From the IMG/VR virus record IMGVR_UViG_2925939204_000001: 64,000 nt of DNA. One strand, written 5' to 3'. The translations under genes and the position numbers were made by a program. The notes under the pieces were generated by a model that saw only the letters and a program-made list of their open reading frames with translations, did not search any database and was not told the origin of the DNA. Every line of letters starts with the position of its first letter. Within the stretch, counting starts at the first letter, position 1. This document shows, one piece after another, positions 1-54,116 of the stretch. The stretch comes from a virus. Taxonomy: Duplodnaviria > Heunggongvirae > Uroviricota > Caudoviricetes.

Positions 1-191
1 TGGTTATAGCAGAAAAATTGGCTATGCCTAATGACCGGCACAAGGTCATAGCCAGCCTCGATCTGGTGACAAACAGATACTGGGAAACAGAGGAACTACA
101 TGAGGCGGGAGTAATTCGTGACCTGATGGAGAATTCCGTTCCCCGCCGCTATCGTGCAGGGAACGGCATCTCCGTGGTTAAAGGTGTTTAA
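1..191 (+). CDS. 3' end of a gene truncated by the window edge, unknown function
   Basis: Open frame from window start to TAA at 189-191 (..RYRAGNGISVVKGV*); no recognisable motif. Confidence 0.3.
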   Translation, partial: VIAEKLAMPNDRHKVIASLDLVTNRYWETEELHEAGVIRDLMENSVPRRYRAGNGISVVKGV

Positions 192-580
192 AGCTCACCT
201 GCGCGCTGTTTTTCAAGCACAGATTTAACATTTGGCGCTTTCCCTTTAAAAGAATGGAAAGTGCCACATTTTTCTGTTTTAACCTCGCGCAGAGCTTCGC
301 CATCGGCGTTCTGCCATTGATGGGATAATGTCATATCACCGCGAGAAGGAACATCCAGCGAGTACAGCGTGTAAGTTCCCCCCATCTCCGCATACTCCTG
401 GAACACATAGCTCATTACGTCAGATTCAGTTTTTCGGTGTGCGTTATCAACCTTATTCCCATTCAGAAATATGGCATCTGGATAGATTTTTATATCAAAC
501 CTACCGCACTTAACTTGTAAATTTCCGGCGCTCGCGATCAAAGGGAAAGACGCCAGTAAAGCAATAGCCAATCTTTTCAA
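188..580 (-). CDS. small secreted/periplasmic protein, unknown function
   Basis: ORF track; N-terminal signal-peptide-like MKRLAIALLASFPLIASA, two Cys in mature part. Confidence 0.5.
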   Translation of the reverse strand: MKRLAIALLASFPLIASAGNLQVKCGRFDIKIYPDAIFLNGNKVDNAHRKTESDVMSYVFQEYAEMGGTYTLYSLDVPSRGDMTLSHQWQNADGEALREVKTEKCGTFHSFKGKAPNVKSVLEKQRAGEL

Positions 581-600
581 TTCTGCCTCCGCTGCGTAAC

Positions 601-1224
601 TTATTGCCCGTATTTTTTACACCATTGCTCTGCCATTTGTTTGGCTAAAGGCCCGGCTACTGCACTGTATTCTGCTGTTTTACTTTGCACACATGAAGCA
701 GATGGTTTTTTATTTCGCTGCTCGGTTAGTTTGCGCTCATAAGCCATCATGCTATCGAACCCGGCAATATCACTTTGGCGAAGCATTCCCTTTTTAACCA
801 AAAATTGCTGCCCCTCGGGCACCAGCGCAAGCATAAAAAGTGGTTGTAATAACTCACCTAATCCTTGCTGGCGATACACTTCGAATTGCTGCCATCCCTG
901 ACTTAATCTGGAAAGAGTATCTTTGGTTGAATAACCTGTTTTTGTTATAGCTTTGTCCGTCAGATATGCTGTATATGCAAAAACGCAAAAGTCAGTTTTA
1001 CCAATAAACTGAGTTCCAACAGGCCGTAATGGAATGCCCTCTCTCTTGCAAAAGTCCATAATTGCCGCTTGTGAATGATCCCCACCAGCGTTATTCATAA
1101 CCTGCTGCCCTGCCCTGAATTGTGCAGGTAACGCAGTTGCATTGGCTGTATTAACAGATACGCATCCCAACATAGCCGCGAGCGCGGTCCCTAAAACCCT
1201 TAACTTCACTACACCGTCCTTCAT
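601..1224 (-). CDS. secreted/periplasmic protein, unknown function
   Basis: ORF track; hydrophobic signal-like N-terminus (LRVLGTALAAMLGCVSVNTANA); co-directional with 188..580. Confidence 0.5.
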   Translation of the reverse strand: MKDGVVKLRVLGTALAAMLGCVSVNTANATALPAQFRAGQQVMNNAGGDHSQAAIMDFCKREGIPLRPVGTQFIGKTDFCVFAYTAYLTDKAITKTGYSTKDTLSRLSQGWQQFEVYRQQGLGELLQPLFMLALVPEGQQFLVKKGMLRQSDIAGFDSMMAYERKLTEQRNKKPSASCVQSKTAEYSAVAGPLAKQMAEQWCKKYGQ

Positions 1225-9303: not shown

Positions 9304-9347
9304 CCATTTGTGTTAGATAATTAATATGTATTTTCTAACACAAATGG
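9304..9347. promoter_or_regulatory. perfect 14-bp inverted repeat CCATTTGTGTTAGA-N16-TCTAACACAAATGG just upstream of the rdgC-like gene; member of a dispersed TGTGTTAGAAAA motif family
   Basis: Read directly; same core recurs at seven or more other intergenic sites. Confidence 0.5.
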
Positions 9348-10259: not shown

Positions 10260-12399
10260 CCTTCGATATGGTTCAGTTTGCAGTGGAATTGAAGCCGCGA
10301 GCATTGCCTGGGAACCGTTGGGTATGCGTCCGGCGTGGTTTGCTGAAATTGAGCCTTTTCCATCTGCCGTTCTTGCGCACCGCTGGCCTCATATCGCCAA
10401 CCTTGGCGATATGACAAAACTTGCCAAAAAAGTCCTGGCTGGGGAAATCGAATCCCCTGATGTGCTCGTCGGGGGAACACCTTGTCAGGCATTCAGTATC
10501 GCGGGATTACGTGGTGGGCTTGATGATGAGCGCGGCGCGCTAACTTTGAAGTATGTGGAGCTTGCAAATGCAATTGACGACAAACGGTCTGAGTCCTTCC
10601 TCAAACCGACAGTTATCGTCTGGGAAAATGTCCCAGGAGTCCTGTCATCGGCAGATAACGCCTTCGGATGTTTCCTTGCCGGATTGGCTGGAGAAGATGC
10701 ACCATTTGAACCAGGTGATCGACCTGAATCAGGAAAAAGTAACGCGTTCTGGCGGTGGGATGGCAAAACCGGTTGCCATGCTCCAAAGTGGCCGCAGTGT
10801 GGTTGTATTTATGGACCGCAGCGAAAGGTGGCCTGGAGAATACTTGATGCCCAATACTTCGGAGTGGCACAACGACGCCGACGCGTGTTTGTTGTCGCAA
10901 GTGCTCGAACAGACCTCGATCCCGCAACGGTACTTTTTGAGTTCGAAGGCGTGCGCCGGGATATTGCGCCGAGCAGAGGCGAGGGGAAGGAAGTTGCCGG
11001 AAATGTTGGAAATGGCATTAAAAGCGGGAGCCATTGGGATAACCCTGTAAATCCTCACCCGACACTTGCCCGATCGCACAATACCGGCGGGACGGGTGCA
11101 AGCAACCAGGAGATTTTTTCACAGCGCGGAAGTGGGCTTGTCGGTGCTTACCGGATGGTAGCATTTGGTGAGTATGCGGATGATGAGGCGGCTTCCACGG
11201 TCAAGGCCAGAGATTTTAAGGATGCAACCGACCTGGCTGTTTTTGACAGTGCGAACGTCGGAGTGGCAGTACGTCGCTTAACGCCTGTCGAGTGCGAACG
11301 CCTGCAGGGCTTTCCTGACGGGCACACGTTGATCCCTACGGAAAAGCGTAAAAAAGTTTCTTCAGATGAACTGGCATACCTTCGCAATCACTATCCAGAT
11401 TTAAGCGAAGAAGAGGCCGCGATGCTTGCAGCTGACGGACCGCGTTACAAAGCGATCGGCAACAGCATGGCAGTTCCTGTTATGCAATGGATAGGGTGTC
11501 GCATTCTTGCGACCGTAGCGGATAAACAGCAAAAAACAATAAATACCATTACCTACACAAGAAAACTCCGGACTCCGGATGAATATGAACGCCCAATATT
11601 CAAATGGGTAGGCGGTAAATTCTCAGAGTTGCCTACAGTGCTTGAGCATCTACCACACGGCAAGCGGTTAATAGAACCATTCGTTGGTGGCGGTTCCGTA
11701 TTTACGAATGCAGGATTTCGCCACAACCTGCTTAATGATATTAACGGTGACCTGATTAACTTCTATCAGACATTGCAGCGAGAGGGACATTCGCTCGTCA
11801 CGCTGGCATATAGTTTTTTCAAAAATTACAACAACGCTGACGCTTACCTCGAAGTGCGCGAGGCATTTAACAGAGGAAAGTATGACCAGCTACATCATGC
11901 TGCCGCCTTTTTGTACCTTAATCGGCACTGTTTTAATGGCGTAACGCGGTACAACCAAAATGGCGAGTTCAACGTGGGGTATGGCAAATACAAAGCGCCC
12001 TACTTCCCACATGCAGAGATGGAGGCATTTTTGGCTGATGACGTACTCAAAAACACGTCCTTTGTATCAGGTGACTTTGCTGGCGTCATCGAGGCGGCTG
12101 GTGAAGGCGATGTGATTTTTTGCGATCCGCCGTATGAACCGCTGCCGGATACAGAAGGGTTTACCAGTTATTCAGGAAATAGCTTCCGTTTCGACGAACA
12201 GAAACGGCTGGTATCTCTATTGGTGGAAGCCCACCAGCGCGGCGCTAAGGTAGTGATAACAAATAGTGGTGCGCCAAACATCCGTGAACTATATGAACGA
12301 AACGGGTTTAAAGTACATCATATGGCAGCCAGACGGTCGGTGTCCTGCAAGGCGTCAACACGTGTAGTTGCTAACGATATAATTGCAATAATGAAGTAA
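10243..12399 (+). CDS. bifunctional DNA methyltransferase: N-terminal C5-cytosine MTase fused to C-terminal Dam-type N6-adenine MTase (P1 Dmt-like)
   Basis: C5 motifs [30 protein letters not shown]; Dam motifs KWVGGK and DPPY; GTG at 10243 after GGAGG is the likely start (ORF opens at 10171). Confidence 0.85.
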
Positions 12400-12447: not shown

Positions 12448-14109
12448 TTAACCTAACTTCGCCCAGGTATCACGCAGCCCAACGGTGCGGTTAAATACCG
12501 GTTTTTCCGCCGTAGAATGGCGGCTGTCGAGGCAGAAATAACCTTCACGCTCAAACTGGAATGCTTTACCCGCTACCGCTTCTTTCAGCGACGGTTCAGC
12601 AAAACCCTGTTTGATCACCAGCGATTCCGGGTTAATCACCGACAGGAAATCATCCGCAGCACCTGGGTTCGGCACGCTGAACAGACGATCGTACAGGCGG
12701 ATTTCAACCGGCAGCGCATGTGCCGCGCTCACCCAGTGAATAACGCCTTTCACTTTACGACCATCTGCCGGATCTTTGCTTAAGGTGTCGGCGTCATAAG
12801 TACAGAAGATGGTGGTGATATTGCCTTCGGCATCTTTCTCCACGCGTTCAGCCTTAATGACGTAAGCATTACGCAGACGCACTTCTTTACCCAGCACCAG
12901 ACGTTTGTACTGCTTGTTAGCTTCTTCGCGGAAATCGGCGCGGTCGATCCAAATCTCACCGCTAAACGGCACCTGACGGCTACCCATTTCCGGTTTGTTT
13001 GGATGGTTCGGCATGGTGACCATTTCGCCTTCGCCCTGGTAGTTTTCGATAACCAGTTTCACCGGATCGATAACCGCCATTGCGCGCGGCGCATTTTCGT
13101 TGAGATCTTCACGGATGCAGGATTCCAGCGACGCCATCTCAATGGTGTTGTCCTGCTTGGTCACGCCGATGCGTTTGCAGAACTCACGAATAGAAGCCGC
13201 AGTGTAACCACGACGACGCAGACCGGAAATGGTCGGCATACGCGGGTCATCCCAGCCTTCAACGTGCTTGTCGGTCACCAGCAGGTTCAGCTTACGCTTG
13301 GACATCACAGTGTATTCCAGATTCAGGCGCGAAAATTCGTACTGGCGCGGGTGAACAGGAATGGTGATGTTGTCCAGTACCCAGTCATACAGACGACGGT
13401 TGTCCTGGAACTCAAGCGTACACAGAGAGTGCGTAATACCTTCCAGCGCATCGCTGATGCAGTGGGTGAAGTCGTACATCGGGTAGATGCACCACTTGTT
13501 GCCAGTCTGGTGATGTTCAGCAAACTTAATGCGGTACAGCACCGGGTCGCGCATCACGATAAACGGCGAAGCCATGTCGATTTTCGCACGCAGGCAGGCT
13601 TTACCTTCTTCAAAACCACCGGCACGCATTTTTTCGAACAGCGCCAGGTTCTCTTCAACGCTGCGGTCGCGGTACGGGCTGTTTTTACCCGGCTGCGTCA
13701 GGGTGCCGCGGTATTCGCGGATCTGTTCCGGCGTCAGTTCGTCAACATACGCCAGGCCTTTGTTGATCAGTTCAACAGCATAGGCATGGAGTTTGTCAAA
13801 ATAATCGGAGGAGTAACGGATGTTGCCAGACCAGTGAAAACCTAACCATTCAACGTCGTTTTTAATCGACTCGACGTACTCGATATCTTCTTTTACCGGG
13901 TTAGTGTCGTCGAAACGCAGGTTGCACTGGCCTTTATAGTCCTGGGCGATCCCGAAGTTCAGGCAGATAGATTTCGCATGACCAATATGCAGATAGCCAT
14001 TCGGTTCCGGCGGGAAACGGGTATGTACTGTGGTGTGCTTACCACTGGCCAGATCTTCATCGATGATCTGACGAATAAAGTTAGTCGGGCGGGCTTCTGC
14101 CTCACTCAT
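12448..14109 (-). CDS. glnS: glutaminyl-tRNA synthetase
   Basis: Full-length 553-aa product nearly identical to enterobacterial GlnRS as recalled; HIGH motif ([12 protein letters not shown]) and KMSKS-like VMSKR. Confidence 0.95.
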
Positions 14110-18780: not shown

Positions 18781-18940
18781 TTACTCCCCTTGTTTAGTGC
18801 CAGAGGACACGCCAGTGCTGTTAAACAAGTATCCGACATACGCTGAACAGTTATTCAGCACGATCGACGAATGCAACCAACGAAACGCACTGAATAACCA
18901 AAGAAACAGGGAGATTTGGGAAGGGAAGGGGCGGCAGTGA
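18614..18940 (+). CDS. o-spanin-like outer-membrane lipoprotein, overlapping the i-spanin in another frame
   Basis: Lipobox LTLSGC after a signal sequence; overlapped Rz/Rz1-type architecture. Confidence 0.45.
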   Translation: MKSLALKMRYAVLGLTMCVCLMTLSGCSGNGQKPSTSVPVKITVEATSKPQANLIDYSPCLVPEDTPVLLNKYPTYAEQLFSTIDECNQRNALNNQRNREIWEGKGRQ

Positions 18941-18966
18941 GCTTCACAAAATCTATATAGCTATTT

Positions 18967-19000
18967 TATGTTAGAAAAATAATTTGAATTTTCGAACATA
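18967..19000. promoter_or_regulatory. operator-like inverted repeat TATGTTAGAAAA-N10-TTTTCGAACATA upstream of the immunity module 1 promoter
   Basis: Read directly; member of the TGTGTTAGAAAA family. Confidence 0.45.
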
Positions 19001-19031
19001 AACAATAAAATAAATCATCAAAAATTTGATG

Positions 19032-19060
19032 TTGATCTTCCATGTTTTCAGGCTTATATT
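19032..19060 (+). promoter_or_regulatory. sigma70-type promoter of immunity module 1 (TTGATC, 17-bp spacer, TATATT)
   Basis: Hexamers and spacing read directly; identical promoter at 52682-52710. Confidence 0.55.
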
Positions 19061-19139
19061 CACGCCGTTGCAGCAAATTCTGCGACCGGGTTTAGCAGCC
19101 TGAATGTACATGCGGACAACCGCAGATATCCGATATTGC

Positions 19140-19258
19140 GGTATTTTTGTGTCCGTAAAACCATGTTACGCCCGAATTATGGTGGGGCGTGATGGGGAGG
19201 CTTCGGCCTGCTGGTTTCATGTACGCCAGTCTGCTAACCCCGTCACGTCCTGCCACCC
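19140..19258 (+). ncRNA. c4: c4-like antisense regulatory RNA of an immI-like operon (module 1)
   Basis: RNA elements b' (catgtac, 19218-19224) and a' (ctgctaac, 19231-19238) are complementary to a1/b1 (19090-19112) and to a2/b2 (19259-19296) overlapping the icd RBS, as in the P1 c4 system. Confidence 0.55.
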
Positions 19259-19307
19259 GTTTAGCAGCGGGTAGCAGGTTGTTAAACCTGTACATGAGGC
19301 CGTAACT

Positions 19308-19523
19308 ATGGTTAATGCCAATCCTTGCGCACGCCCGGAATTTATCTGGCGCTTTTATTCCTGCACAAAACACACCTACATCAGCGTAATGGCAGCTACT
19401 GAGGCTGAAGCGCGTTCATTTCTTCCTACAGATCCATGCATTTTTGCCGCTCGCTTTAAACTCGATGCTCTGGACGTTTTGACCTACTGGAACCGCCCAA
19501 TGAACTGCGTGGAGGTGCATTAA
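19308..19523 (+). CDS. icd: Icd-like small protein (host cell division inhibitor family)
   Basis: N-terminal RPEFIWRF motif; position between c4-like RNA and ant; RBS overlapped by the b2 antisense target. Confidence 0.6.
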   Translation: MVNANPCARPEFIWRFYSCTKHTYISVMAATEAEARSFLPTDPCIFAARFKLDALDVLTYWNRPMNCVEVH

Positions 19524-20521
19524 TGGACGCAGTAACTATCAATAACAAACCATTCCCGACTCTCGAATATAAAAATCAGCGTGTAGTGACCTTTGAGATG
19601 ATTGATGAGGTGCACGAACGTGTTGATGGGGCAGCCAGGGGAACATTTAAGCGAAACAGAAGTCGTTTCATTGAAGGGGTGGATACTTATGTTATTGATT
19701 ATTCTGAAAAGGGCTTTTTAAGCCCATTTGGAATTGATGTCCCCCCGCGCGGTTTGCGCGTGTTCACTGAGTCCGGCTATCTGATGATTGTTAAGTCATT
19801 CAATGACGATCTGGCCTGGCAAGTGCAACGTGAGCTGGTAAACAGCTATTTTCGTATTAAGCAATTAATACCGGAGCACTCACCGCTAAAATCAAAAGCC
19901 GAAATCCTGGCCGAAATGGCGCAAATGCATCTTGAGCATGAACGCCGGATCAACGCCGTAAATGCCCAGGTAGCCGAGGTATCAGCACAAGTATCGATGG
20001 TCGCTGAAACACTCGAGCAAATCAAGAAAGGCAATATTCCGGAAGGCTACATTGGCTACCGCCAGCTGGCGGCGAAATGTGGCCTGACTGAAGCAAAATG
20101 TCGCAACCTGGTCAACGCTTACCGGATTCCCACCGATACGCATGAGTTTTTAACTCCCGATGGTTTGCTTGCGCGACGCTCCATTGTGGCCCTGGCCCCC
20201 TTCCGGAAAGCCTTTAAGCAGGTGATGTCGGAGGCAGAACCACGCAATAAACGCTGGTATCATCCAAAGATGGGGATGTTTCAGGCAATCCACCATCCTG
20301 TGCCTGAAAGCCCAAAGGATAATCTGTCACTACATACCGTCAGAGAGAAGATCAGGACTGGATACGCAACAGTGTGTCGTCGTTCTTCCTGGCCTGAAGG
20401 TATATGGGTGTGGCCCGAAGGTGGATCACGAAAGCACTGGCGCACTATCCGGGACGGGAAAATCCATGCTATTGATTTAGCGCCAGAGGATATTGTTGCT
20501 ACGGACTGGATTGTTAGTTAA
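19523..20521 (+). CDS. ant: antirepressor Ant with C-terminal DUF2829 (Tad2-like) domain
   Basis: TAATG-coupled to icd; central region identical to the module 2 Ant (IKKGNIPEGYIGYRQLAAKCGLTEAKCRNLVNAYRIPTDTHEFLTP); last ~65 aa homologous to the free-standing ORF 53885..54085. Confidence 0.7.
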   Translation: MDAVTINNKPFPTLEYKNQRVVTFEMIDEVHERVDGAARGTFKRNRSRFIEGVDTYVIDYSEKGFLSPFGIDVPPRGLRVFTESGYLMIVKSFNDDLAWQVQRELVNSYFRIKQLIPEHSPLKSKAEILAEMAQMHLEHERRINAVNAQVAEVSAQVSMVAETLEQIKKGNIPEGYIGYRQLAAKCGLTEAKCRNLVNAYRIPTDTHEFLTPDGLLARRSIVALAPFRKAFKQVMSEAEPRNKRWYHPKMGMFQAIHHPVPESPKDNLSLHTVREKIRTGYATVCRRSSWPEGIWVWPEGGSRKHWRTIRDGKIHAIDLAPEDIVATDWIVS

Positions 20522-20529
20522 TTACTGTT

Positions 20530-20556
20530 GCCCCGGCCTGTCCGGGGCTTTCGTGA
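20530..20556 (+). terminator. rho-independent terminator GCCCCGGCC-tgt-CCGGGGC then T-rich
   Basis: Read directly after the ant stop; near-identical terminator at 54089-54116. Confidence 0.55.
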
Positions 20557-20961
20557 CTAAAAATCTGTTCGCTGTCGCCATGCGTTTTTTAACTCAGGAA
20601 TATCCGCCATTTCAATTAACTTGCGAAGTCCAGCACTGACTTTCCCATTGCCAACCATAGCAAGCCAATCTCTTACTGCTTTCGGCATGTAGAGCGTTGC
20701 AGTTACCGGCTCTTCAACCCTGGCAGGACATCCGCATACAGGCCATTTAACTGATTCCATAACTTCGGATGCCGGGGTGAGGGCGGGGACATTGAGTATA
20801 TCTCTACCAGAAAACTGGATAACGATCCGTTCAGCGAGCGAGAGTATCTCACTTTCGGCAAGAATTGATGCCAACTGCGCCTCAACAAGAAAGCGACTTG
20901 TTGTGTTCAGAGAGTGGCTCTTAGCGCCATTTTTATACGAAACAAAGATTCGATACGCCAT
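20557..20961 (-). CDS. hypothetical protein, possible regulator
   Basis: ORF track; operator-like motif TGTGTTAGAAAA (20975-20986) lies in its upstream region. Confidence 0.4.
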   Translation of the reverse strand: MAYRIFVSYKNGAKSHSLNTTSRFLVEAQLASILAESEILSLAERIVIQFSGRDILNVPALTPASEVMESVKWPVCGCPARVEEPVTATLYMPKAVRDWLAMVGNGKVSAGLRKLIEMADIPELKNAWRQRTDF

Positions 20962-21119
20962 AACTCTAATGATTTGTGTTAGAAAACTAAAATTAAATCA
21001 CATAACAACATGCGTGTTAATAGATTTTATTTTACTAAACCTATTGACTAAATCACAAAGTAGGTATTGTTAGCCCGTCAAAAGAACCTTCACGCCGCGC
21101 CCGAATTTAGGGCTTAACC

Positions 21120-38029: not shown

Positions 38030-41016
38030 TTATGAATGCTGATAAAACGAACAACATAATGACACTATCCTCTGGTGTCTCACAGCCGTTGCTTGCTGAT
38101 GTTCAATATTTCGAACTCTATAGTAGTCTGGCTCTTAACAGAAAACTAAAAAATATTGTTTTGCCTGGCTTTTACTGTGGATTTGAACCGGTTCCCGGCA
38201 CAGGGTTGAGTGTCCGTATAACTTCTGAAAACTCAGAAGGTAAAGGGGCTGCTTCAGTAGATGTAAATAATGTTCAGATATCCGTTCAGCAAATAGAAGA
38301 TGTGACTGTCTCGGTAAAGGCAGGGGCTACCAACATTATTGTGCTGGAAGCCAATTTTGAACATGGTGTAAAAACGACACAGGTAGATAGCGCATCTTTT
38401 GTCAGTGCTGCAAGAATTTACGCGCGTACGGACAATACTATTGGGCAGAATCAAATTGAATTATGTCGAGTTATCGTGCCTAGCGGCGCAACGGCTGTGA
38501 CTAAAGAAATGATTGTGCTTAAATACCGGGTTAACCGTGCTGTTGGTGTCGAATTCTCTAATGAAATAAGCAGTACAGAAGAAAGAAAAGCGGCTACACC
38601 TCTGGCTGTCAAAACTCTCCATGATTTGGTTGATACAAAAGCCCCGATCAACAGCCCGAATCTGACAGGAACGCCAACAACACCAACAGCGACACAGGGG
38701 ACTAATAATACCCAGATCGCAAGCACGGCTTTCGTTATGGCCGCGATTGCCGCACTTGTAGATTCGTCACCTGATGCACTTAACACTCTGAACGAACTGG
38801 CCGCCGCGCTTGGTAATGATCCGAACTTTTCCGCGACAGTGACTCGCCTGATTGGGGAAAAAGTTGCCAAAGATGGCGACACCATGGAAGGTAAACTTAA
38901 TCTGCCGCAGACCTCTGCATTCGGCATCAATACCGACAACAGACTGGGGGGGAACTCTCTGACGCTGGGCGATCACGATACCGGAATTAAACAGGAAGGA
39001 GACGGCGTATTGTCCGTGTTCGCCAACGGCCAGCGTGTGTTCCTTTTCACGGAAAGAAGTATTACCTCATTAAAAGAGCTTCTGATAGGTGATGCACGTT
39101 ATAGCACCGGTGGTGATGTGTATGGCAGTCAGTGGGGAGACGGTTGGTTGAGTTCCTGGTTAAGTGCCCGCTTTGCAGAGTGTGCCAACGCCAGCCATAA
39201 CCACCCTTGGAGCCAGATTACCGACGTACCAGCAGCCAGCCTCACTCAGAGCGGCATTGTACAACTTAGTAGTGCCACCAACAGCACTTCTGAAACATTA
39301 GCTGCAACGCCAAAAGCGGTTAAAGCTGCATACGATCTAGCAGCCGGAAAGGCACCATCCAGTCATACACATCCCTGGAATCAGATCACCGGTGTGCCAA
39401 CAGCTTCATTGACAGCGAAAGGCATCACTCAGCTCAGTAGTGCCACTAACAGCACGTCCGAAGTGCTGGCCGCCACACCGAAAGCTGTCAAGGCCGCATA
39501 TGACCTGGCTAACGGGAAGTATACGGCCCAGGATGCAACCACGACACAAAAAGGGATAGTTCAGCTCAGTAGCGACACCAACAGCACTTCTGAAACATTA
39601 GCTGCAACGCCAAAAGCGGTTAAAGCTGCATACGATCTAGCAGCCGGAAAGGCACCATCCAGTCATACACATCCCTGGAATCAGATCACCGGTGTGCCAA
39701 CAGCTTCATTGACAGCGAAAGGCATCACTCAGCTCAGTAGTGCCACTAACAGCACGTCCGAAGTGCTGGCCGCCACACCGAAAGCTGTCAAGGCCGCATA
39801 TGACCTGGCTAACGGGAAGTATACGGCCCAGGATGCAACCACGACACAAAAAGGGATAGTTCAGCTCAGTAGCGACACCAACAGCACTTCTGAAACATTA
39901 GCTGCAACGCCAAAAGCGGTTAAAGCTGCATACGATCTAGCAGCCGGAAAGGCACCATCCAGTCATACACATCCCTGGAATCAGATCACTAGTGTGCCAA
40001 CAGCTTCATTGACAGCGAAAGGCATCACTCAGCTCAGTAGCGACACCAACAGCACGTCCGAAGTGCTGGCCGCCACACCGAAAGCTGTCAAGGCCGCATA
40101 TGACCTGGCTAACGGGAAGTATACGGCCCAGGATGCAACCACGACACAAAAAGGGATAGTTCAGCTCAGTAGCGACACCAACAGCACTTCTGAAACATTA
40201 GCTGCAACGCCAAAAGCGGTTAAAGCTGCATACGATCTAGCAGCCGGAAAGGCACCATCCAGTCATACACATCCCTGGAATCAGATCACTAGTGTGCCAA
40301 CAGCTTCATTGACAGCGAAAGGCATCACTCAGCTCAGTAGCGACACCAACAGCACGTCCGAAGTGCTGGCCGCCACACCGAAAGCTGTCAAGGCTGCATA
40401 TGATTTGGCTAATGGAAAGCAAGCGGCAGACACTACGCTCACTGCTCTAGCGGCACTAGCTACAGCAGCAGATAAACTCCCTTATTTCACAGGGGTTGAT
40501 CGTGCCGCGTTAACTGCATTGACAAGTGTTGGACGCGCCATTCTTGGTAAGACCAGTATTCAGAGCGTTCTTGATTACCTTCAATTGGGAGAAGCGGCAA
40601 AAAGGGGCGTGGGCACCGGTAGCAATCAACTCCCTGACATGTCCGCATTTGGTATGTCGCGAAACGGACAAACTGCCTGGGATATTCTCCCAAATGGTAT
40701 GATTCGACAGGCTGGCACTGTGACACTGACACCAGTTGGTAACTTCAACGCGCAGGTGCTTGGTGGGGTGACGTACTACACCCATTACTACAGGATTAAT
40801 TTCCCCAGACAATTCCCAAATGCACAAATAGCAACGCTGGCTACACTAGCGAGTTACGCCTATTCGAACCAGGCAACAATGGCTGGAAAATCACTGGCAA
40901 CGCATCGCGATACTGATTCTGGCACTGACGTATCAAGAACGCGATTCACTGTGGCGTATACGACACCCAATCTCGGCGAAATACCGACAGTGCATTTTGA
41001 ATCAATAGGGTACTAA
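38026..41016 (+). CDS. tail fibre protein with tandem tail-fibre repeats
   Basis: 996 aa; repeated ATPKAVKAAYDLA and HTHPW motifs typical of enterobacterial phage tail-fibre repeats. Confidence 0.8.
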   Translation: MIMNADKTNNIMTLSSGVSQPLLADVQYFELYSSLALNRKLKNIVLPGFYCGFEPVPGTGLSVRITSENSEGKGAASVDVNNVQISVQQIEDVTVSVKAGATNIIVLEANFEHGVKTTQVDSASFVSAARIYARTDNTIGQNQIELCRVIVPSGATAVTKEMIVLKYRVNRAVGVEFSNEISSTEERKAATPLAVKTLHDLVDTKAPINSPNLTGTPTTPTATQGTNNTQIASTAFVMAAIAALVDSSPDALNTLNELAAALGNDPNFSATVTRLIGEKVAKDGDTMEGKLNLPQTSAFGINTDNRLGGNSLTLGDHDTGIKQEGDGVLSVFANGQRVFLFTERSITSLKELLIGDARYSTGGDVYGSQWGDGWLSSWLSARFAECANASHNHPWSQITDVPAASLTQSGIVQLSSATNSTSETLAATPKAVKAAYDLAAGKAPSSHTHPWNQITGVPTASLTAKGITQLSSATNSTSEVLAATPKAVKAAYDLANGKYTAQDATTTQKGIVQLSSDTNSTSETLAATPKAVKAAYDLAAGKAPSSHTHPWNQITGVPTASLTAKGITQLSSATNSTSEVLAATPKAVKAAYDLANGKYTAQDATTTQKGIVQLSSDTNSTSETLAATPKAVKAAYDLAAGKAPSSHTHPWNQITSVPTASLTAKGITQLSSDTNSTSEVLAATPKAVKAAYDLANGKYTAQDATTTQKGIVQLSSDTNSTSETLAATPKAVKAAYDLAAGKAPSSHTHPWNQITSVPTASLTAKGITQLSSDTNSTSEVLAATPKAVKAAYDLANGKQAADTTLTALAALATAADKLPYFTGVDRAALTALTSVGRAILGKTSIQSVLDYLQLGEAAKRGVGTGSNQLPDMSAFGMSRNGQTAWDILPNGMIRQAGTVTLTPVGNFNAQVLGGVTYYTHYYRINFPRQFPNAQIATLATLASYAYSNQATMAGKSLATHRDTDSGTDVSRTRFTVAYTTPNLGEIPTVHFESIGY
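39250..40430 (+). repeat. about four near-identical tandem 300-bp repeats within the tail-fibre gene
   Basis: Identical 60-nt lines recur at 39541, 39841 and 40141. Confidence 0.9.
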
Positions 41017-41018
41017 AT

Positions 41019-41252
41019 ATGGAGAATATCTATTTCAGCCCAACGACCGTTGGTTTTTATGTTTCTGAACAAGAGCGACCTGATGATGCGGTTGAAGTCT
41101 CGCCAGAGGTGGAGGCATTTTTGAGGGAGTGTGTTATCTGGGGAGCGGATACATTTAACGTAGAGCGAGATGCAGCAACGGTGACATATCCAACAGAACT
41201 GCTTGAATATGTCACCACCTACAACGCCCCCGTTAAATATCCTGCGGATTGA
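41019..41252 (+). CDS. short ORF with tail-fibre-assembly-like N-terminus ([14 protein letters not shown]...PDDAVEV) lacking the conserved Tfa C-terminal domain
   Basis: N-terminal motif resembles Tfa chaperones; ends 77 aa in, overlapping the convergent Tfa pseudogene. Confidence 0.4.
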
Positions 41253-41643
41253 CAGGCCATACGGGTTTTGCTGTATCAACGCGCATCAGCAAGACCCGGT
41301 ATTTTTTCCATTCAGATAACGCGGCGGTTTCTTCTGCCGTCGCGATTTCCGCATCAAAAGCATCCTGTCTCTAGGCTATTTCCTTATCAGCCATAGAACG
41401 CAATACCGTTCTTTTCTGTTCAGCCTGAATAATCTGTTGTTCAGCGGAGAGTGGCGGGATATCAATCCACGCAGGATTACCATTTTTATCAGCCCCCAGC
41501 GTTTTGCCTTGTGGCGCTACGCCTGTGTAAATTGCCATTGTTTCATCATCAACATCAACGCCATTTTCAGGCCATGAACCGGCGCTGATATATACCTCTT
41601 TTAGTGCTTTCGGATAGAAAGAGCCTTTATAAAATTTATTCAT
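41233..41643 (-). pseudogene. tail fibre assembly (Tfa) gene interrupted by an in-frame TAG (41371-41373)
   Basis: N-terminal 90 codons then TAG then 45 codons in the same frame ending with the conserved Tfa C-terminus [36 protein letters not shown]. Confidence 0.55.
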
Positions 41644-41835
41644 TCTTAATACCCCAGCGCGATAAAACAACAATCTTTGGTGCCCTCTCCGGATGGCGAC
41701 CAGTTCTGAATACTGATATGCGTTCTGCTGGCAATACGCACATTCATCGCGGCATTGTAGCCAGATGTTCCACGGTTTCCGGTCGCAAATAAGCCTGCAT
41801 AGGGAAAAGCAAATGGTAAGCCGCTCTAACTGCTA

Positions 41836-45834: not shown

Positions 45835-47225
45835 ATCCAGTGCGCCATAAAACCCCGTCCTTCAGGGCGGGGATATAAGGCGCGGTTTTCCACCTAAATT
45901 TTTTTGTTTAAAATAGCGGGATGAAACGACTACAGGCATTTAAATTCCGGTTAAGACCAGATGGTCAACAGGAGCGAGAAATGAGGCGCTTCGCGGGAGC
46001 TTGTCGTTTCGTTTTCAATCGTGCTCTGGCGCTTCAGAATGAGAATCATGAAGCCGGGAACAAATATATTCCTTACACAAAAATGGCTTCCTGGCTGATT
46101 GAGTGGAAAAATGCCTCTGAAACGCAATGGCTTAAAGATTCTCCCTCACAGCCATTGCAGCAATCACTGAAAGACCTTGAGCGGGCCTACAAAAATTTCT
46201 TCCAGAAGCGTGCGGCTTTCCCCCGATTCAAAAAGCGGGGACAGAATGATGCATTCCGCTACCCGCAGGGCGTTAAGCTCGATCAGGAAAACAGCCGTAT
46301 TTTTCTGCCGAAACTGGGCTGGATGCGCTACCGGAACAGCCGTCAGGTCACGGGTGTTGTGAAAAATGTCACTGTCAGCCAGTCCTGCGGTAAGTGGTAC
46401 ATCAGTATTCAGACAGAAAGTGAAGTATCAACTCCGGTTCACCCTTCAGCATCAATGGTCGGGCTGGATGCTGGCGTGGCTAAACTCGCCACGCTGTCAG
46501 ATGGCACAGTCTTTGAGCCTGTAAACAGTTTTCAGAAAAACCAGAAGAAGCTGGCGAGACTTCAGCGACAGTTAAGCCGCAAGGTCAAATTCAGCAACAA
46601 CTGGCAGAAGCAGAAACGCAAAATACAGCGACTGCATTCCTGTATCGCAAATATCCGCAGGGACTACCTTCACAAAGTCACAACGACCGTCAGCAAAAAC
46701 CACGCAATGATAGTCATTGAGGATTTGAAGGTCAGCAACATGTCAAAGTCAGCAGCGGGTACGGTCAGCCAGCCGGGGCGCAATGTCCGGGCAAAATCAG
46801 GTTTAAACCGTTCGATACTGGATCAGGGCTGGTATGAAATGCGCCGCCAGCTTGAGTACAAGCAGCTCTGGCGTGGCGGTCAGGTGCTTGCTGTTCCGCC
46901 AGCGTACACAAGCCAGCGTTGCGCGTACTGTGGTCATACAGCGAAAGAAAATCGCCTGTCACAAAGTAAATTCGAGTGCCGGGCATGTGGATATACAGCG
47001 AACGCCGATATAAACGGCGCTCGTAACATTTTAGCGGCGGGACACGCCGTTCTTGCCTGTGGAGGGATGGTGCAGTCAGGCCGCCCGTTGAAGCAGGAAC
47101 CCACCGAAATGATTCAGGCAACAGCCTGAGCGTAGCAGGAATCCATGTTCTTGAGGGCGTGGAGGATGTCAACTGTTCTCACATAAATCACACACTTTTT
47201 ACACTTCCAGCTTTCTCTATAGGGG
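45835..47225 (+). mobile_element. IS200/IS605-family element carrying only tnpB, with subterminal hairpins; boundaries approximate
   Basis: TnpB ORF flanked by imperfect hairpins (AACCCCGTCC-ttca-GGGCGGGG at 45851-45874) and no TnpA gene. Confidence 0.55.
45921..47129 (+). CDS. tnpB: TnpB (OrfB) RNA-guided endonuclease, apparently intact
   Basis: RuvC-like residues in GLDAGV, IVIEDLK and [10 protein letters not shown]; C-terminal zinc finger CAYCGH...CRACG. Confidence 0.85.
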
Positions 47226-51380: not shown

Positions 51381-51486
51381 TCGCCTCGTTAAGTTAAATT
51401 TCTAACATAGTGTATTTATATACACTGTTGATCCTGGTGGATGGGATCGAGTAGGATCGCGGTCACTGCTCCGGTAGCGACTGCCA

Positions 51487-52595: not shown

Positions 52596-52630
52596 TGTGT
52601 TAGAAAATTAATTTGCTGTTTCTAAATCGG
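52596..52630. promoter_or_regulatory. operator-like site TGTGTTAGAAAA-N-TTTCTAA upstream of the immunity module 2 promoter
   Basis: Read directly. Confidence 0.45.
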
Positions 52631-52681: not shown

Positions 52682-52710
52682 TTGATCTTCCATGTTTTCA
52701 GGCTTATATT
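52682..52710 (+). promoter_or_regulatory. sigma70-type promoter of immunity module 2 (TTGATC, 17-bp spacer, TATATT)
   Basis: Identical to the module 1 promoter. Confidence 0.55.
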
Positions 52711-52789
52711 CATGCCGTCGTAGCAAATTCTGCGACCAGGTTTGACAGCCTGAATGTTAGTGCGGACAACCGCAGATTTCCGATATTGC

Positions 52790-52907
52790 GGTATTTTTGT
52801 GTCCGTAAACCGCGTTACGCCCGAATTATGGTGGGGCGTGATGGGGAGGCTTCGGCCTGCTGGTTTCACTAACGCCAGTCTGTCAACCCTGTCACGTCCT
52901 GCCACCT
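52790..52907 (+). ncRNA. c4: c4-like antisense regulatory RNA, module 2, with altered specificity
   Basis: b' cactaac (52867-52873) and a' ctgtcaac (52880-52887) complementary to a1/b1 (52740-52762) and a2/b2 (52908-52945); compensatory changes relative to module 1. Confidence 0.55.
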
Positions 52908-52956
52908 GTTTGACAGCGGGTAGCAGGTTGTTAAACCTGTTAGTGAGGCCGTAACT

Positions 52957-53181
52957 ATGGTTAATGCCAATCCTTGCTCACGTCCAGAATTCATCTGGCG
53001 TTTCCACTCCCTGCAAAAACACTGCGATCACTTCGCAATTGCCGCAACCGAAAAAGAAGCCCGTTCTCTGATCCCTGATCAGTATGGTGTTCTTACTGGT
53101 CGTTTCTCTACTTCCCCACAACCAAACACTAATCCCTGGTATCGCAATATTACCAATCCCGGAATTGCGGAGGCACACTGA
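52957..53181 (+). CDS. icd: Icd-like small protein, module 2
   Basis: MVNANPCSRPEFIWRF N-terminus; paralogue of 19308..19523. Confidence 0.6.
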   Translation: MVNANPCSRPEFIWRFHSLQKHCDHFAIAATEKEARSLIPDQYGVLTGRFSTSPQPNTNPWYRNITNPGIAEAH

Positions 53182-53888
53182 TGGAAATCTGCATTCTTGA
53201 AAAGCCATCAATGACCAGCATTGAGATCGCTGAGCTGGTGGGAAGTCGCCCTGATAACGTTAAACGCACTATTGAACGCTTGAGTAAATCAGGTGTTATT
53301 CCACTTCCTCCAATGGAGGTTTCCGAAAATATCAATAACTTAGGATTTAAAGTTAAAAATTCACACTACGTCTTCGAAGGCGAGCAAGGCAAGCGTGACA
53401 GTATCATTGTCGTTGCGCAGCTTTCTCCCGAATTTACCGCCCGGCTGGTGGACCGCTGGCGCGAACTGGAAGAACAAGCACGCCAGCCGTTGACCGAAAT
53501 AGAGATGATCGCCGCAATGGCTGCAAATGCAGTTCAGCAGCAAAAGCGGCTTCATGTTGTTGAGTCAAAGGTTAGCCAGGTGGTAGAAACCGTTGAGCAA
53601 ATCAAGAAAGGCAATATGCCGGAAGGCTACATTGGCTACCGCCAGCTGGCGGCGAAATGTGGCCTGACTGAAGCCAAATGCCGTAACCTTGTCAACGCTT
53701 ACCGGATTCCCACCGATACGCATGAGTTTTTAACTCCAGAGGGGGTATTGTCGCGTCGTTCCATCGTGGCCTTATCTCCCTTCATGAATGCTTTTAACCG
53801 GATGATGTCGGAGGCTGAACACCGAGGAAAACGCTGGTATCACCCCAAAATGGGGCAATTCCAGGTGATCGGTTGGGGAGGTGAGTGA
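53181..53888 (+). CDS. ant: antirepressor Ant with Rha-like N-terminal domain and shared Ant core
   Basis: N-terminal SIEIAELVGSRPDNVKRTIERL (Rha-like HTH); central region identical to module 1 Ant. Confidence 0.7.
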   Translation: MEICILEKPSMTSIEIAELVGSRPDNVKRTIERLSKSGVIPLPPMEVSENINNLGFKVKNSHYVFEGEQGKRDSIIVVAQLSPEFTARLVDRWRELEEQARQPLTEIEMIAAMAANAVQQQKRLHVVESKVSQVVETVEQIKKGNMPEGYIGYRQLAAKCGLTEAKCRNLVNAYRIPTDTHEFLTPEGVLSRRSIVALSPFMNAFNRMMSEAEHRGKRWYHPKMGQFQVIGWGGE

Positions 53889-54085
53889 TGGACATCATGC
53901 AGGCGGTAAAAAAAATCAGGGAAGGACAGGCTGAAGTGTGCCGCCGTAAAGCATGGAGTATTGATGTATGGGCCTGGCCTGATAATTACTCTACTACCGG
54001 ATGGTTTTGTATTAATGGACTCAAGATCCGGGAAGTTTATTTATCGACGGCTGATATAGTCGGTAATGATTGGATCGTGACTTGA
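53885..54085 (+). CDS. DUF2829-like small protein (candidate Tad2-type anti-defence sponge), coupled to ant
   Basis: 66 aa with N-terminal AxxKIReGxxVCRRKAW and C-terminal ADIVGNDWIV pattern; homologous to the C-terminal 65 aa of the module 1 Ant. Confidence 0.45.
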   Translation: MMDIMQAVKKIREGQAEVCRRKAWSIDVWAWPDNYSTTGWFCINGLKIREVYLSTADIVGNDWIVT

Positions 54086-54088
54086 AGC

Positions 54089-54116
54089 GTGATGCCCCGG
54101 CCTGGCCGGGGCTTTT
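54089..54116 (+). terminator. rho-independent terminator GCCCCGGCC-tgg-CCGGGGC then TTTTTTC
   Basis: Read directly. Confidence 0.6.

What the first reader, a model, noticed from the sequence alone, without database searches (positions are those of the whole stretch)
19030..20521. Two heterospecific c4-like antisense-RNA immunity modules in one replicon (module 1)
The same ~300-bp architecture occurs at 19031-19310 and 52681-52960: identical promoter, then target elements a1/b1, then RNA elements b'/a', then targets a2/b2 overlapping the RBS of an icd-like gene coupled to ant. This is the P1/P7 immI (c4 RNA) layout. Between copies the recognition elements changed in concert. Module 1 has a = GTTTAGCAGC (19090, 19259), a' = CTGCTAAC (19231), b = TGTACATG (19105, 19289), b' = CATGTAC (19218). 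Module 2 has a = GTTTGACAGC, a' = CTGTCAAC, b = TGTTAGTG, b' = CACTAAC. Every substitution in the RNA is matched at both targets, so each RNA should regulate only its own operon, as in P1 versus P7 heteroimmunity but carried together. The two Ant proteins also have different N-terminal domains on a shared core.
Basis: partly seen in the sequence, partly recalled or inferred. Interest (0 to 1): 0.85.

Follow-up and report, generated by a model that had tools for sequence, protein, structure and literature searches.

The report
Stacked orthogonal c4 antisense immunity cassettes
This E. coli phage-plasmid (a relative of phage D6) carries two complete copies of the phage P1-type "c4 antisense RNA, icd, antirepressor" immunity operon whose RNA recognition sequences differ in a matched way, so each RNA should silence only its own operon; the parts are of a known kind, and carrying several such copies turns out to be common in this phage group.

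Summary
Rfam finds a C4 antisense RNA and a c4-a1b1 target motif at both sites. The two 300-bp leaders are 94% identical, and their differences sit in the six recognition elements.

In 35 distinct modules from phages and viral contigs, every c4/target pair is complementary in every module. Compensatory changes occur at 8 positions. Two "a" alleles and six "b" alleles reassort freely. Heterospecificity is therefore well supported by sequence, though untested experimentally.

The finding is not new in kind. The window is a D6-like phage-plasmid.
- Module 2 is D6's own repL-side immI operon, and its 77-nt c4 is identical to phage P1's.
- Module 1 is a 1.6-kb cassette that replaces D6 orf53. It pairs the P7 a allele with a non-P1/P7 b allele. 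Nine of 5426 complete E. coli genomes carry it.
- D6 itself has two c4-icd-ant modules. The closest plasmid has a third just outside the window. Other replicons carry up to four.
- The Ant proteins are not homologues of P1 Ant.

Verdict: a new member of a known kind, of moderate interest.

The parts
18932..20572 (+). Module 1 cassette as a whole: 1641 bp that replace D6 positions 54622-55102 (orf53), between the orf55-like gene and the orf52-like/capsid genes.
   Evidence: Local blastn of the window against D6. Collinear blocks end at window 18931 and resume at 20573. The full cassette is present in 9 of 5426 complete E. coli genomes.
18969..18986 (+). Operator-like motif TGTTAGAAAAATAATTTG, a candidate D6-type C1 operator upstream of module 1.
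   Evidence: The motif TGTTAGAAAANTAATTTG with up to 3 mismatches gives 6 sites in the window against 0.29 expected, and 0 of 100 shuffles reach 6. Its 3' end overlaps a promoter-like TTGAAT-16-TAAAAT at 18984-19011, as Op51/P51a do in P1. Function is inferred.
19032..19060 (+). Module 1 main promoter-like site, TTGATC-17-TATATT. It occupies the position of P1 P1c4 (former P51b).
   Evidence: The sequence is identical in module 2 and aligns with the annotated P1 promoter.
19054..19106 (+). Module 1 leader with upstream targets: a1 (TTAGCAG, 19092-19098, in a hairpin loop) and b1 (TGTACATG, 19105-19112).
   Evidence: Rfam RF03163 c4-a1b1, 53.5 bits against a cut-off of 46.7. a1/b1 pair with a'/b' in 100% of 525 cells across 35 modules.
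19175..19260 (+). Module 1 c4 antisense RNA. The mature-like 77 nt is about 19181-19257 by alignment to the annotated P1 c4. b' is CATGTAC at 19218-19224 and a' is CTGCTAA at 19231-19237.
   Evidence: Rfam RF01695, 71.7 bits against 45. Fold -45.3 kcal/mol, z -5.5, with b' in a loop and a' in a junction.
19261..19299 (+). Module 1 downstream targets: a2 (TTAGCAG, 19261-19267) and b2 plus Shine-Dalgarno (GTACATGAGG, 19290-19299), 8 nt before the icd ATG.
   Evidence: Sequence. Duplexfold gives 11 bp at -15.2 kcal/mol for b and -9.3 for a. Covariation is 100% of 595 cells, with 8 compensatory pairs.
19308..19523 (+). icd1, an Icd-like protein of 71 aa. It is mosaic: a P1-type N-terminus and a C-terminal two thirds like the ref-side icd of NZ_CP020051.1.
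   Evidence: NCBIfam NF033153, 46.5 bits against 25. Translations.
19523..20521 (+). ant1, 332 aa. It has an ORF6N N-terminal domain, a shared core (aa ~122-256) and a C-terminal 58-aa domain. Its start overlaps the icd1 stop (TAATG).
   Evidence: Pfam ORF6N, 5e-12. PHROG anti-repressor families phrog_1726 and phrog_63. 67% identity to the Ant2 core. 96% identity to the ref-side Ant over aa 122-332. No similarity to P1 Ant1.
20530..20548 (+). GC-rich hairpin GCCCCGG-CCTGT-CCGGGGC after ant1, with a weak T tract. It is a likely terminator and a homologue of the module 2 terminator.
   Evidence: Sequence. The same hairpin with a T6 run at 54094-54112 is called a terminator in module 2. It was not called by the scan in module 1.
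52598..52615 (+). Operator-like motif TGTTAGAAAATTAATTTG upstream of module 2.
   Evidence: Exact match to the enriched motif.
52682..52710 (+). Module 2 promoter-like site, TTGATC-17-TATATT.
   Evidence: Identical to module 1.
52704..52756 (+). Module 2 leader with a1 (TTGACAG) and b1 (TGTTAGTG).
   Evidence: Rfam RF03163, 54.4 bits.
52824..52909 (+). Module 2 c4 antisense RNA. The mature-like 77 nt is about 52830-52906. b' is CACTAAC at 52867-52873 and a' is CTGTCAA at 52880-52886. It is identical to the P1 c4 RNA.
   Evidence: Rfam RF01695, 68.8 bits. Sequence identity with the annotated P1 c4. Fold -42.4 kcal/mol, z -5.55.
52910..52948 (+). Module 2 downstream targets: a2 (TTGACAG, 52910-52916) and b2 plus Shine-Dalgarno (GTTAGTGAGG, 52939-52948).
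   Evidence: Sequence. The target region is identical to P1's.
52957..53181 (+). icd2, an Icd-like protein of 74 aa.
   Evidence: NCBIfam NF033153, 40 bits against 25. The module is 97.5% identical to the D6 orf19 region.
53181..53888 (+). ant2, 235 aa. It has a winged-helix/Rha-type N-terminus and the shared core. Its start overlaps the icd2 stop (TGATG).
   Evidence: Pfam HTH_24, 2.7e-7, and Phage_pRha below its cut-off. phrog_63 'anti-repressor Ant', 1.4e-47. Corresponds to D6 orf18.
53885..54085 (+). Small ORF of 66 aa (D6 orf17 equivalent). It is homologous to the C-terminal 58 aa of Ant1, so the same domain is fused in module 1 and separate in module 2.
   Evidence: BLASTP, 45% identity, E 8e-17. 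Both match phrog_7385.
54094..54112 (+). Intrinsic terminator of module 2.
   Evidence: 8 GC pairs followed by TTTTTT.

Best explanation
**What it is.** The window is part of a D6-like phage-plasmid of E. coli. It holds two complete, independently regulated P1-immI-type operons.

**How each operon is built and should work.**
- Each operon is transcribed from a shared-type promoter. A candidate C1 operator lies upstream.
- The leader carries decoy or partner sites a1/b1. A roughly 77-nt c4 RNA follows, presumably cut out by RNase P as in P1.
- Sites a2/b2 come next. b2 runs into the Shine-Dalgarno sequence of icd.
- c4 pairs through its junction (a') and its hairpin loop (b') with a2/b2. This blocks icd translation and, through the overlapping stop/start, the downstream antirepressor gene.

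**What sets specificity.** Specificity lies in a 2-nt core of a and a 6-nt core of b.
- Module 2 carries the P1 alleles. Its c4 is identical to P1 c4.
- Module 1 carries the P7 a allele with a b allele (TACATG) that is neither P1 nor P7.
- Each RNA should therefore silence only its own operon.

**How module 1 arose.** It is a mosaic cassette: a D6-type leader, an ORF6N N-terminus, and the core of the ref-side Ant. It was inserted in place of D6 orf53.

**Shown versus inferred.** Shown here: sequence anatomy, family membership of the RNAs and Icd, folds, perfect covariation, and the cassette boundaries. Inferred: RNA processing, repression, orthogonality in vivo, antirepressor activity against the D6-type C1, and the selective reason for carrying several modules.

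**Proposed reason for stacking.** A lysogen that makes several c4 species silences the Ant operons of more kinds of incoming relatives. A phage that carries several Ant operons escapes any resident that lacks one of the matching c4 RNAs.
For: - **RNA family hits.** Rfam C4 and c4-a1b1 hits lie above gathering score at both loci. Folds with z about -5.5 expose a' and b'.
- **Complementarity in the window.** All six elements are complementary within each module and differ between modules.
- **Survey.** 113 modules (53 distinct) were found with a 40-nt c4 core. They show 2 a alleles x 6 b alleles, with 11 of 12 combinations seen and no discordant module.
- **Formal counts.** 100% pairing, 8 compensatory pairs and 116 compensatory cells, with 0 of 500 shuffles as good and slid controls at 24-48%.
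- **Duplex energies.** Cognate about -24 kcal/mol, cross -9.5 to -18.3. This is the same range as the P1/P7 cross pairs.
- **Proteins and coupling.** Icd family cut-offs are passed. Both Ants match PHROG anti-repressor families. Stop/start overlaps are TAATG and TGATG.
- **P1 and P7 record annotation.** It describes a1, b1, a2 and b2, the c4 misc_RNA, and repression of icd and ant translation.
- **D6 context.** The window is collinear with D6, and module 1 is a substitution. D6 has two C4 hits. NZ_CP020051.1 has a third module. pGF60-C has four. IMG/VR contigs hold 2-4, never with the same a+b combination.
- **Conservation.** The cassette is 97.6-100% conserved in plasmids from human, poultry, pig and fish-meat isolates.
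Against: - No expression, processing or repression data exist for either locus.
- The Ant proteins show no BLASTP similarity to P1 Ant1. Antirepressor activity against the D6-type C1 therefore rests on family annotation and gene position.
- The operator assignment rests only on motif enrichment. The motif's distance to the promoter differs between modules (63 versus 84 bp).
- The absence of same-specificity pairs within replicons is not statistically significant (P about 0.13).
- Some co-resident modules share a, and some share b. Partial cross-talk is therefore possible if one element suffices.
- Duplexfold also finds an off-register -9 kcal/mol pairing of the AGCA-type a' with P1-type targets.
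Confidence: 0.8

Rival explanations
1. The modules act mainly as RNA-controlled addiction or stability cassettes rather than as immunity determinants. c4 would be the antidote and Icd, a cell-division inhibitor, the poison. Stacking would then reflect selfish spread of the cassettes.
For: - Icd-like proteins are present in every module.
- The cassettes sit at different backbone sites in related plasmids. The ORF6N module lies near the capsid gene here but between tub and repB in pGF60-C.
- In pGF60-C one module keeps c4 and icd although its ant is truncated.
- 740 of 749 related places are on plasmids.
- These plasmids already carry several toxin-antitoxin pairs.
Against: - c4 is a highly structured, tRNA-like, presumably stable RNA, co-transcribed with its target. 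That is the opposite of the labile antidote that post-segregational killing needs.
- ant is conserved and translationally coupled in most modules.
- The candidate C1 operator ties the operon to the lysis-lysogeny circuit.
- By established P1 genetics (own knowledge), immI mutants change immunity, not plasmid stability.
Confidence: 0.12
2. The two c4 RNAs are not truly orthogonal. One matched element is enough, or the conserved GUUUC/GAGG pairing over the ribosome-binding site is enough. The modules would then be partly redundant duplicates.
For: - 4 of the 10 b'-b2 pairs counted (5 of the 11 bp that duplexfold predicts) are invariant and cover the Shine-Dalgarno sequence.
- The cross-pair energy of module 1 c4 on module 2 targets is still -18.3 kcal/mol in the simple model.
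- Co-resident modules that share b but differ in a exist.
Against: - Every variable position covaries at all three sites in 35 distinct modules, with no one-sided change. That is hard to explain unless mismatches matter.
- P1 and P7 differ by no more than this and are reported as heteroimmune.
- The cognate b duplex is 6-10 kcal/mol stronger than the cross b duplexes.
Confidence: 0.07
3. Module 1 is an inert by-product of recombination between the repL-side and ref-side modules. It would be carried passively and not expressed.
For: - It is visibly mosaic: a D6-type leader, an icd with a P1-type N-terminus and a ref-side-type C-terminus, and an Ant core 96% identical to the ref-side Ant.
- It is rare, in 9 of 5426 genomes.
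Against: - The promoter, operator-like site, a1/b1, c4 fold, a2/b2, Shine-Dalgarno sequence, both ORFs and the stop/start overlap are all intact.
- Its a and b alleles are mutually consistent at all six sites.
- The cassette is 97.6-100% conserved in plasmids from unrelated sources.
- The same allele pair occurs in other viral contigs.
Confidence: 0.04

Closest known systems
Phage P1 / P7 immI operon (c4 antisense RNA - icd - ant1/ant2)
   Same: - Same order of elements: operator, two promoters, a1/b1, a processed c4, a2/b2 over the icd ribosome-binding site, and icd coupled to ant.
- The leaders are 87-93% identical in DNA.
- Module 2's c4 and its targets are identical to P1's. Module 1's a allele is P7's.
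- Icd is homologous.
   Different: - The antirepressor genes are unrelated in sequence to P1 Ant1/Ant2, and no internal Ant2 start is evident.
- The b allele of module 1 (TACATG / CAUGUA) is neither P1 nor P7.
- The candidate operator differs from the P1 C1 consensus.
- The flanking genes differ: there is no sim or kilA next to module 1.
- There are two, probably three, modules per replicon instead of one.
Phage D6 and D6-like plasmid prophages (e.g. pYU39_89): repL-side and ref-side c4-icd-ant regions
   Same: - The window is collinear with D6 at 95-99% identity.
- Module 2 is the D6 orf19/orf18/orf17 region at 97.5% identity.
- D6 also has two C4 hits, and a second c4/icd region is noted for pYU39_89 in PMC6799933.
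   Different: - D6 has no module at the capsid-proximal site. It has orf53 there.
- D6's repL-side b allele is CTTACG, not the P1 allele.
- D6's second module has a divergent isrK-type leader, whereas module 1 has the P1/D6 repL-type leader.
- Module 1's Ant has an ORF6N N-terminus, not the Rha-type N-terminus of D6 orf82.
Gifsy-1 isrK - orf45 - anrP locus (Salmonella) and phage P4 CI RNA / seqA-seqC immunity
   Same: - A leader element, a processed small RNA and a downstream complementary site control a small upstream ORF coupled to an antirepressor.
- The ref-side modules of D6, NZ_CP020051.1 and pGF60-C match Rfam isrK directly upstream of their C4.
- The short IsrK RNA acts in trans to activate translation (PMC4825925). 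This offers a role model for a1/b1.
   Different: - The two modules in the window match c4-a1b1, not isrK.
- No AntQ-type antiterminator is linked.
- Whether a short a1/b1 transcript is made here is unknown.

Membership tests
P1/P7-type immI operon (c4 - icd - ant) | c4 antisense RNA gene matching the curated covariance model | tested here: met
   RF01695 at 71.7 and 68.8 bits against a gathering score of 45, with full-length matches.
P1/P7-type immI operon (c4 - icd - ant) | c4 fold: a long closing stem and two hairpins, with b' unpaired in the second loop and a' unpaired in the junction | tested here: met
   The minimum-free-energy fold equals the centroid fold for both RNAs and is the same shape as P1 and P7 c4. 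z is -5.5. The Rfam structure line agrees.
P1/P7-type immI operon (c4 - icd - ant) | Upstream target pair a1/b1 in the leader | tested here: met
   RF03163 at 53.5 and 54.4 bits against 46.7. 100% pairing with a'/b' over 35 modules.
P1/P7-type immI operon (c4 - icd - ant) | Downstream target pair a2/b2, with b2 overlapping the icd ribosome-binding site | tested here: met
   b2 plus GAGG lies at 19290-19299 and 52939-52948, 8 nt before the ATG. Predicted duplexes are 11 bp. 100% pairing with 8 compensatory pairs.
P1/P7-type immI operon (c4 - icd - ant) | Icd-like small protein as the first ORF | tested here: met
   NCBIfam NF033153 at 46.5 and 40 bits against a cut-off of 25.
P1/P7-type immI operon (c4 - icd - ant) | ant translationally coupled to icd (overlapping stop and start) | tested here: met
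   TAATG at 19521-19525 and TGATG at 53179-53183. P1 has a 4-nt overlap. Coupling itself was not measured.
P1/P7-type immI operon (c4 - icd - ant) | Antirepressor homologous to P1 Ant1/Ant2 | tested here: not met
   BLASTP of Ant1 and Ant2 against P1 Ant1 gives a best E of 0.96 and 0.38. They belong to other anti-repressor families (ORF6N or Rha N-termini; phrog_1726 and phrog_63). The locus therefore works like immI, but its effector is a different protein.
P1/P7-type immI operon (c4 - icd - ant) | C1 operator controlling the upstream promoter | tested here: inconclusive
   An 18-bp motif is enriched (6 sites against 0.29 expected) and lies upstream of both modules and of repL. It matches the P1 operator consensus only in part, by my own comparison, and binding is untested.
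P1/P7-type immI operon (c4 - icd - ant) | c4 released as a ~77-nt RNA by processing, and repression of icd/ant in trans | not testable with these tools
   This needs northern blots or RNA-seq and reporter assays. Only module 2's sequence identity to the mature P1 c4 supports it.
P1/P7-type immI operon (c4 - icd - ant) | Immunity specificity set by the c4 allele (heteroimmunity) | not testable with these tools
   Indirect support only: allele differences at least as large as P1 versus P7, energies and covariation.
D6-like plasmid prophage | Genome collinear with phage D6, including the repL, portal, capsid, tail, parM and glnS regions | tested here: met
   blastn blocks at 90.6-99.3% identity (most at 95-99%) cover most of the window in D6 order. 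The window matches 91-kb E. coli plasmids at 100% identity.
isrK-type leader module (Gifsy-1 IsrK / D6 ref-side type) | Rfam isrK match directly upstream of C4 | tested here: not met
   There is no isrK hit in the window. isrK hits occur only in the ref-side modules of D6, NZ_CP020051.1 and pGF60-C.

The most novel reading that the evidence does not exclude
P1- and D6-like phage-plasmids would maintain a population-wide combinatorial library of orthogonal c4 specificities and stack up to four mutually orthogonal c4-icd-ant cassettes per replicon.
- The library has at least 2 a alleles x 6 b alleles on the P1-type leader, plus a parallel reassorting set on the isrK-type leader.
- The a and b contacts would work as an AND gate. 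Modules that share only one element could then coexist without cross-talk.
- Stacking would be driven by an immunity versus anti-immunity arms race. More c4 species would mean broader protection of the lysogen. More Ant operons would mean a broader ability to break a resident's immunity.

The allele library and the stacking are shown here. The AND-gate logic and the selective driver are not.
Probability: 0.35. Interest if true: 0.6.

Novelty: new member of a known kind. Interest (0 to 1): 0.4.

Why it matters
**What is ordinary.** The c4 antisense RNA, its targets and the P1/P7 heteroimmunity principle have been known since about 1990. D6-like plasmids are already annotated with more than one icd-ant pair.

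**What the check adds.**
- Module 1 is a mobile, mosaic cassette with an a/b allele combination that neither P1 nor P7 has.
- c4 specificity is built from two independently reassorting elements, with perfect three-site covariation. This includes the "putative" a1/b1 sites, which argues that those are functional.
- Replicons with 2-4 differently addressed modules are common.

**Why that matters if confirmed experimentally.**
- It gives a ready-made natural set of a dozen or so orthogonal antisense regulator/target pairs.
- It gives a testable model for how superinfection immunity diversifies among phage-plasmids. These elements are widespread in E. coli and Salmonella, including multidrug-resistant strains.

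Tried and rejected
- **Primary literature not held.** The D6 genome paper (Gilcrease and Casjens 2018) was requested by DOI and by PMC id and is not held. The primary P1 c4 papers are not held either. What those authors said about the two D6 immI regions could not be checked. I relied on the D6, P1 and P7 record annotations and on papers that cite them.
- **Literature search.** Searches for a published survey of c4 specificity alleles found none. This is weak evidence of absence.
- **Ant function.** BLASTP against P1 Ant1 and a sequence search of PDB chains gave nothing. No structure prediction was run, because it would not bear on the RNA question.
- **Avoidance of same-specificity pairs.** No clash was seen among co-resident modules, but chance alone gives this 13% of the time. 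It is not claimed as evidence.
- **Window coordinates on NZ_CP020051.1.** I first assumed the window was strictly colinear with this plasmid and would contain the 3' end of the third ant gene. The sequence shows that the window starts inside the next (pmgF-like) gene and diverges there. The third module is therefore reported only for the relative, not for the window.
- **Off-register pairing.** Duplexfold predicts an off-register a' pairing (-9 kcal/mol). It was not interpreted, because it appears equally for P7 on P1.
Full report
**1. The observation**

The two leaders align at 94% identity. They share an identical promoter stretch (TTGATC-17-TATATT at 19032-19060 and 52682-52710), and the mismatches cluster in six short elements.

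A scan of the whole window against Rfam at gathering thresholds returns exactly four hits:
- C4 antisense RNA (RF01695) at 19175-19260 (71.7 bits) and 52824-52909 (68.8 bits).
- The c4-a1b1 target motif (RF03163) at 19054-19106 and 52704-52756.

The 77-nt segments that correspond to the annotated mature P1 c4 fold at -45.3 and -42.4 kcal/mol (z about -5.5). Their shape is the same as P1 and P7 c4: b' sits in a 9-nt loop and a' in a 7-nt junction.

Each leader is followed by an Icd-like ORF that passes the NCBIfam cut-off. A larger ORF follows whose start overlaps the icd stop (TAATG, TGATG).

The two large proteins share a core that is 67% identical. Their N-termini differ: ORF6N in one, winged-helix/Rha in the other. 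Both match PHROG anti-repressor families.

**2. What the replicon is**

- Module 2 with its flanks is 97.5% identical to the repL-side icd/ant/orf17 region of Escherichia phage D6.
- The whole window is collinear with D6 at 95-99% identity over most of its length.
- The window is 100% identical over 5 kb to 91-kb E. coli plasmids such as NZ_CP020051.1.
- Against D6, window 18932-20572 (module 1) replaces D6 54622-55102, which holds orf53.
- Hundreds of D6-like plasmids match the flanks at 99% but lack the cassette. The full cassette is found in only 9 of 5426 complete E. coli genomes. There it is 97.6-100% identical, in isolates from humans, poultry, pigs and fish meat.

Module 1 is mosaic.
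- Its promoter and leader are of the D6 repL-side type.
- Its icd has a P1-type N-terminus and a C-terminal two thirds like the ref-side icd.
- Ant1 residues 122-332 are 96% identical to the ref-side Ant of NZ_CP020051.1.
- The last 58 residues of Ant1 are homologous to the separate small ORF that follows ant2.

**3. More than two modules**

- D6 itself has two C4 hits. The second lies next to ref and is preceded by an Rfam isrK match instead of c4-a1b1.
- NZ_CP020051.1 has the same ref-side module: isrK, C4 at 77.1 bits, an icd of 71 aa and an ant of 313 aa. It ends about 60 bp before the gene in which the window begins.
- The replicon type that the window represents therefore carries three modules. 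Only two of them are inside the window.
- The third module's elements are again self-consistent and distinct: a is TTGGAAC against GUUCCAA, and b is GTCAAAGG against CCUUUGAC.
- Plasmid pGF60-C has four C4 hits and four icd genes at four backbone sites. These include an ORF6N-type module between tub and repB.
- IMG/VR contigs carry two, three or four P1-leader modules.

**4. Is the concerted change meaningful?**

Aligning the leaders of P1, P7, D6 and the window shows three things:
- Module 2 has exactly the P1 alleles, and its c4 and a2/b2 region are identical to P1's.
- Module 1 has the P7 a allele and a b allele (TACATG) found in neither P1 nor P7.
- D6 has the P1 a allele and yet another b allele.

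An exact search for a 40-nt conserved c4 core in IMG/VR gave 114 stretches.
- From these, 113 modules (53 distinct sequences) were extracted.
- There are two a alleles and six b alleles. Eleven of the twelve combinations occur.
- In every module a1 = a2 = the complement of a', and b1 = b2 = the complement of b'.

The formal count was made on 35 distinct modules.
- For c4 against a2/b2, 17 pairs gave 595 of 595 cells paired. Eight pairs showed changes on both sides (116 cells), and no change was one-sided. None of 500 shuffles did as well, and register-shifted controls paired at 33-48%.
- For c4 against a1/b1, 15 pairs gave 525 of 525 cells paired.

The constant part of the b' loop (UUUC, plus the adjacent stem G in the energy model) pairs with the Shine-Dalgarno region GAGG(C). 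The variable part pairs with the 6 nt before it.

Simple duplex energies are about -24 kcal/mol for cognate pairs. The window's cross pairs come to -9.5 and -18.3, which brackets the P1/P7 cross values of -13.2 and -17.5. PMC6906374 describes P1 and P7 as heteroimmune through minor immI differences.

**5. Mechanism**

The P1 record annotates the following:
- operator Op51 and promoters P51a/P51b;
- the putative a1/b1 sites;
- a 77-nt c4 RNA;
- a2/b2 as the sites through which c4 represses icd and ant translation;
- icd as apparently required for ant expression.

PMC8546580 summarises Ant1/Ant2 as an antirepressor of C1 and c4 as the repressor of Ant synthesis.

By homology of every RNA element and of Icd, I infer the same mechanism for both window modules, each addressed by its own a/b code.

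An 18-bp motif, TGTTAGAAAANTAATTTG, occurs six times in the window against 0.29 expected. It lies upstream of both modules and of repL. In module 1 it overlaps a second promoter-like site, just as Op51 overlaps P51a. It is a candidate D6-type C1 operator, unproven.

The perfect covariation of a1/b1 argues that these "putative" sites are functional. The Gifsy-1 IsrK work shows that a short leader RNA can activate translation of a small ORF coupled to an antirepressor, in trans. That is a possible model, untested here.

**6. Limits on membership**

The antirepressors are not homologues of P1 Ant1/Ant2, and no solved structure is related by sequence. The loci work like immI and contain true c4 and Icd family members, but the effector belongs to different protein families.

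RNA processing, repression, orthogonality and C1 antagonism were not testable.

**7. Why stack modules?**

My inference is as follows. A lysogen with several c4 species silences the Ant operons of more kinds of incoming relatives. A phage with several Ant operons needs only one that the resident cannot silence.

No two co-resident modules share both a and b. Chance alone gives that result 13% of the time, so it is not evidence.

Some co-resident modules share a, and some share b. This suggests, but does not show, that both contacts are required.

An addiction-cassette reading (c4 as antidote, Icd as poison) is a minority alternative.

**8. Novelty**

- The c4 and c4-a1b1 motifs are curated families (PMC2864571).
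- P1/P7 heteroimmunity is classical.
- ImmI is a known variable hot spot, and extra icd-ant copies have been noted in P1-like plasmids.
- A second c4/icd region has been noted in a D6-like plasmid.
- I found no paper that tabulates the a x b allele system or the stacking. The key D6 paper could not be read.

I file the finding as a new member of a known kind. It has a moderately interesting family-level pattern behind it. Interest 0.4.

Noticed in passing
Outside the window, just left of position 1. NZ_CP020051.1 record 53654-55075 (locus L122 655-2076, minus strand): The closest plasmid carries a third c4-icd-ant module with an isrK-type leader and its own a/b code (a TTGGAAC, b GTCAAAGG). 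The window begins in the pmgF-like gene that follows it, and the window sequence diverges from that plasmid there.
   Followed up: partly
window 9311-9328, 18969-18986, 20977-20994, 51390-51407 (-), 52598-52615, 63542-63559: An 18-bp motif, TGTTAGAAAANTAATTTG, is enriched: 6 sites against 0.29 expected. It is possibly the operator of the D6-type C1 repressor. Sites lie upstream of both immI modules, repL and the capsid operon.
   Followed up: partly
window 20339-20518 (Ant1 aa 273-332) and 53885-54085: The same ~60-aa domain (phrog_7385, ending in DWIV) is fused to the C-terminus of Ant1 and of the ref-side Ant. In module 2 and in D6 (orf17) it is a separate ORF overlapping the ant stop. This is a gene fusion or fission, and the domain's function is unknown.
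   Followed up: partly
Loci L123/L124 (NZ_CP172188.1 pGF60-C) and IMG/VR contig 2703718869_000013 (L113-L116): Related replicons carry four C4 RNAs each. In both, two co-resident modules share the b allele (TACAT) but differ in a. This bears on whether a and b are both required for specificity.
   Followed up: partly
L001 2214-2424, L122 1866-2076 and L123 38167-38377: The isrK-type ref-side modules also reassort a and b. D6 has a TTGAGAC with b GCAAAAGG. NZ_CP020051.1 has a TTGGAAC with b GTCAAAGG. pGF60-C has a TTGGAAC with b GCAAAAGG.
   Followed up: partly
window about 12448-14109 (-): A glutaminyl-tRNA synthetase gene (glnS) is carried on the phage-plasmid, as in D6 orf62. The tRNA genes of the same plasmid type lie outside the window.
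   Followed up: no
window 1-1172, 10260-11568, 38723-41817 and 45838-47172: These stretches have no D6 match of 150 bp or more in the blastn comparison. They are further mosaic replacements relative to D6 and include the simB-side region at the left end.
   Followed up: no
window 19113-19150 and 52763-52800: After b1, the leader has hairpins (GCGGACAACCGC, and CCGCAGAT..ATTGCGG) followed by TATTTTTGTG. This could end a short a1/b1 transcript, by analogy with IsrK. The terminator scan did not call it, because the loop is longer than 8 nt.
   Followed up: no
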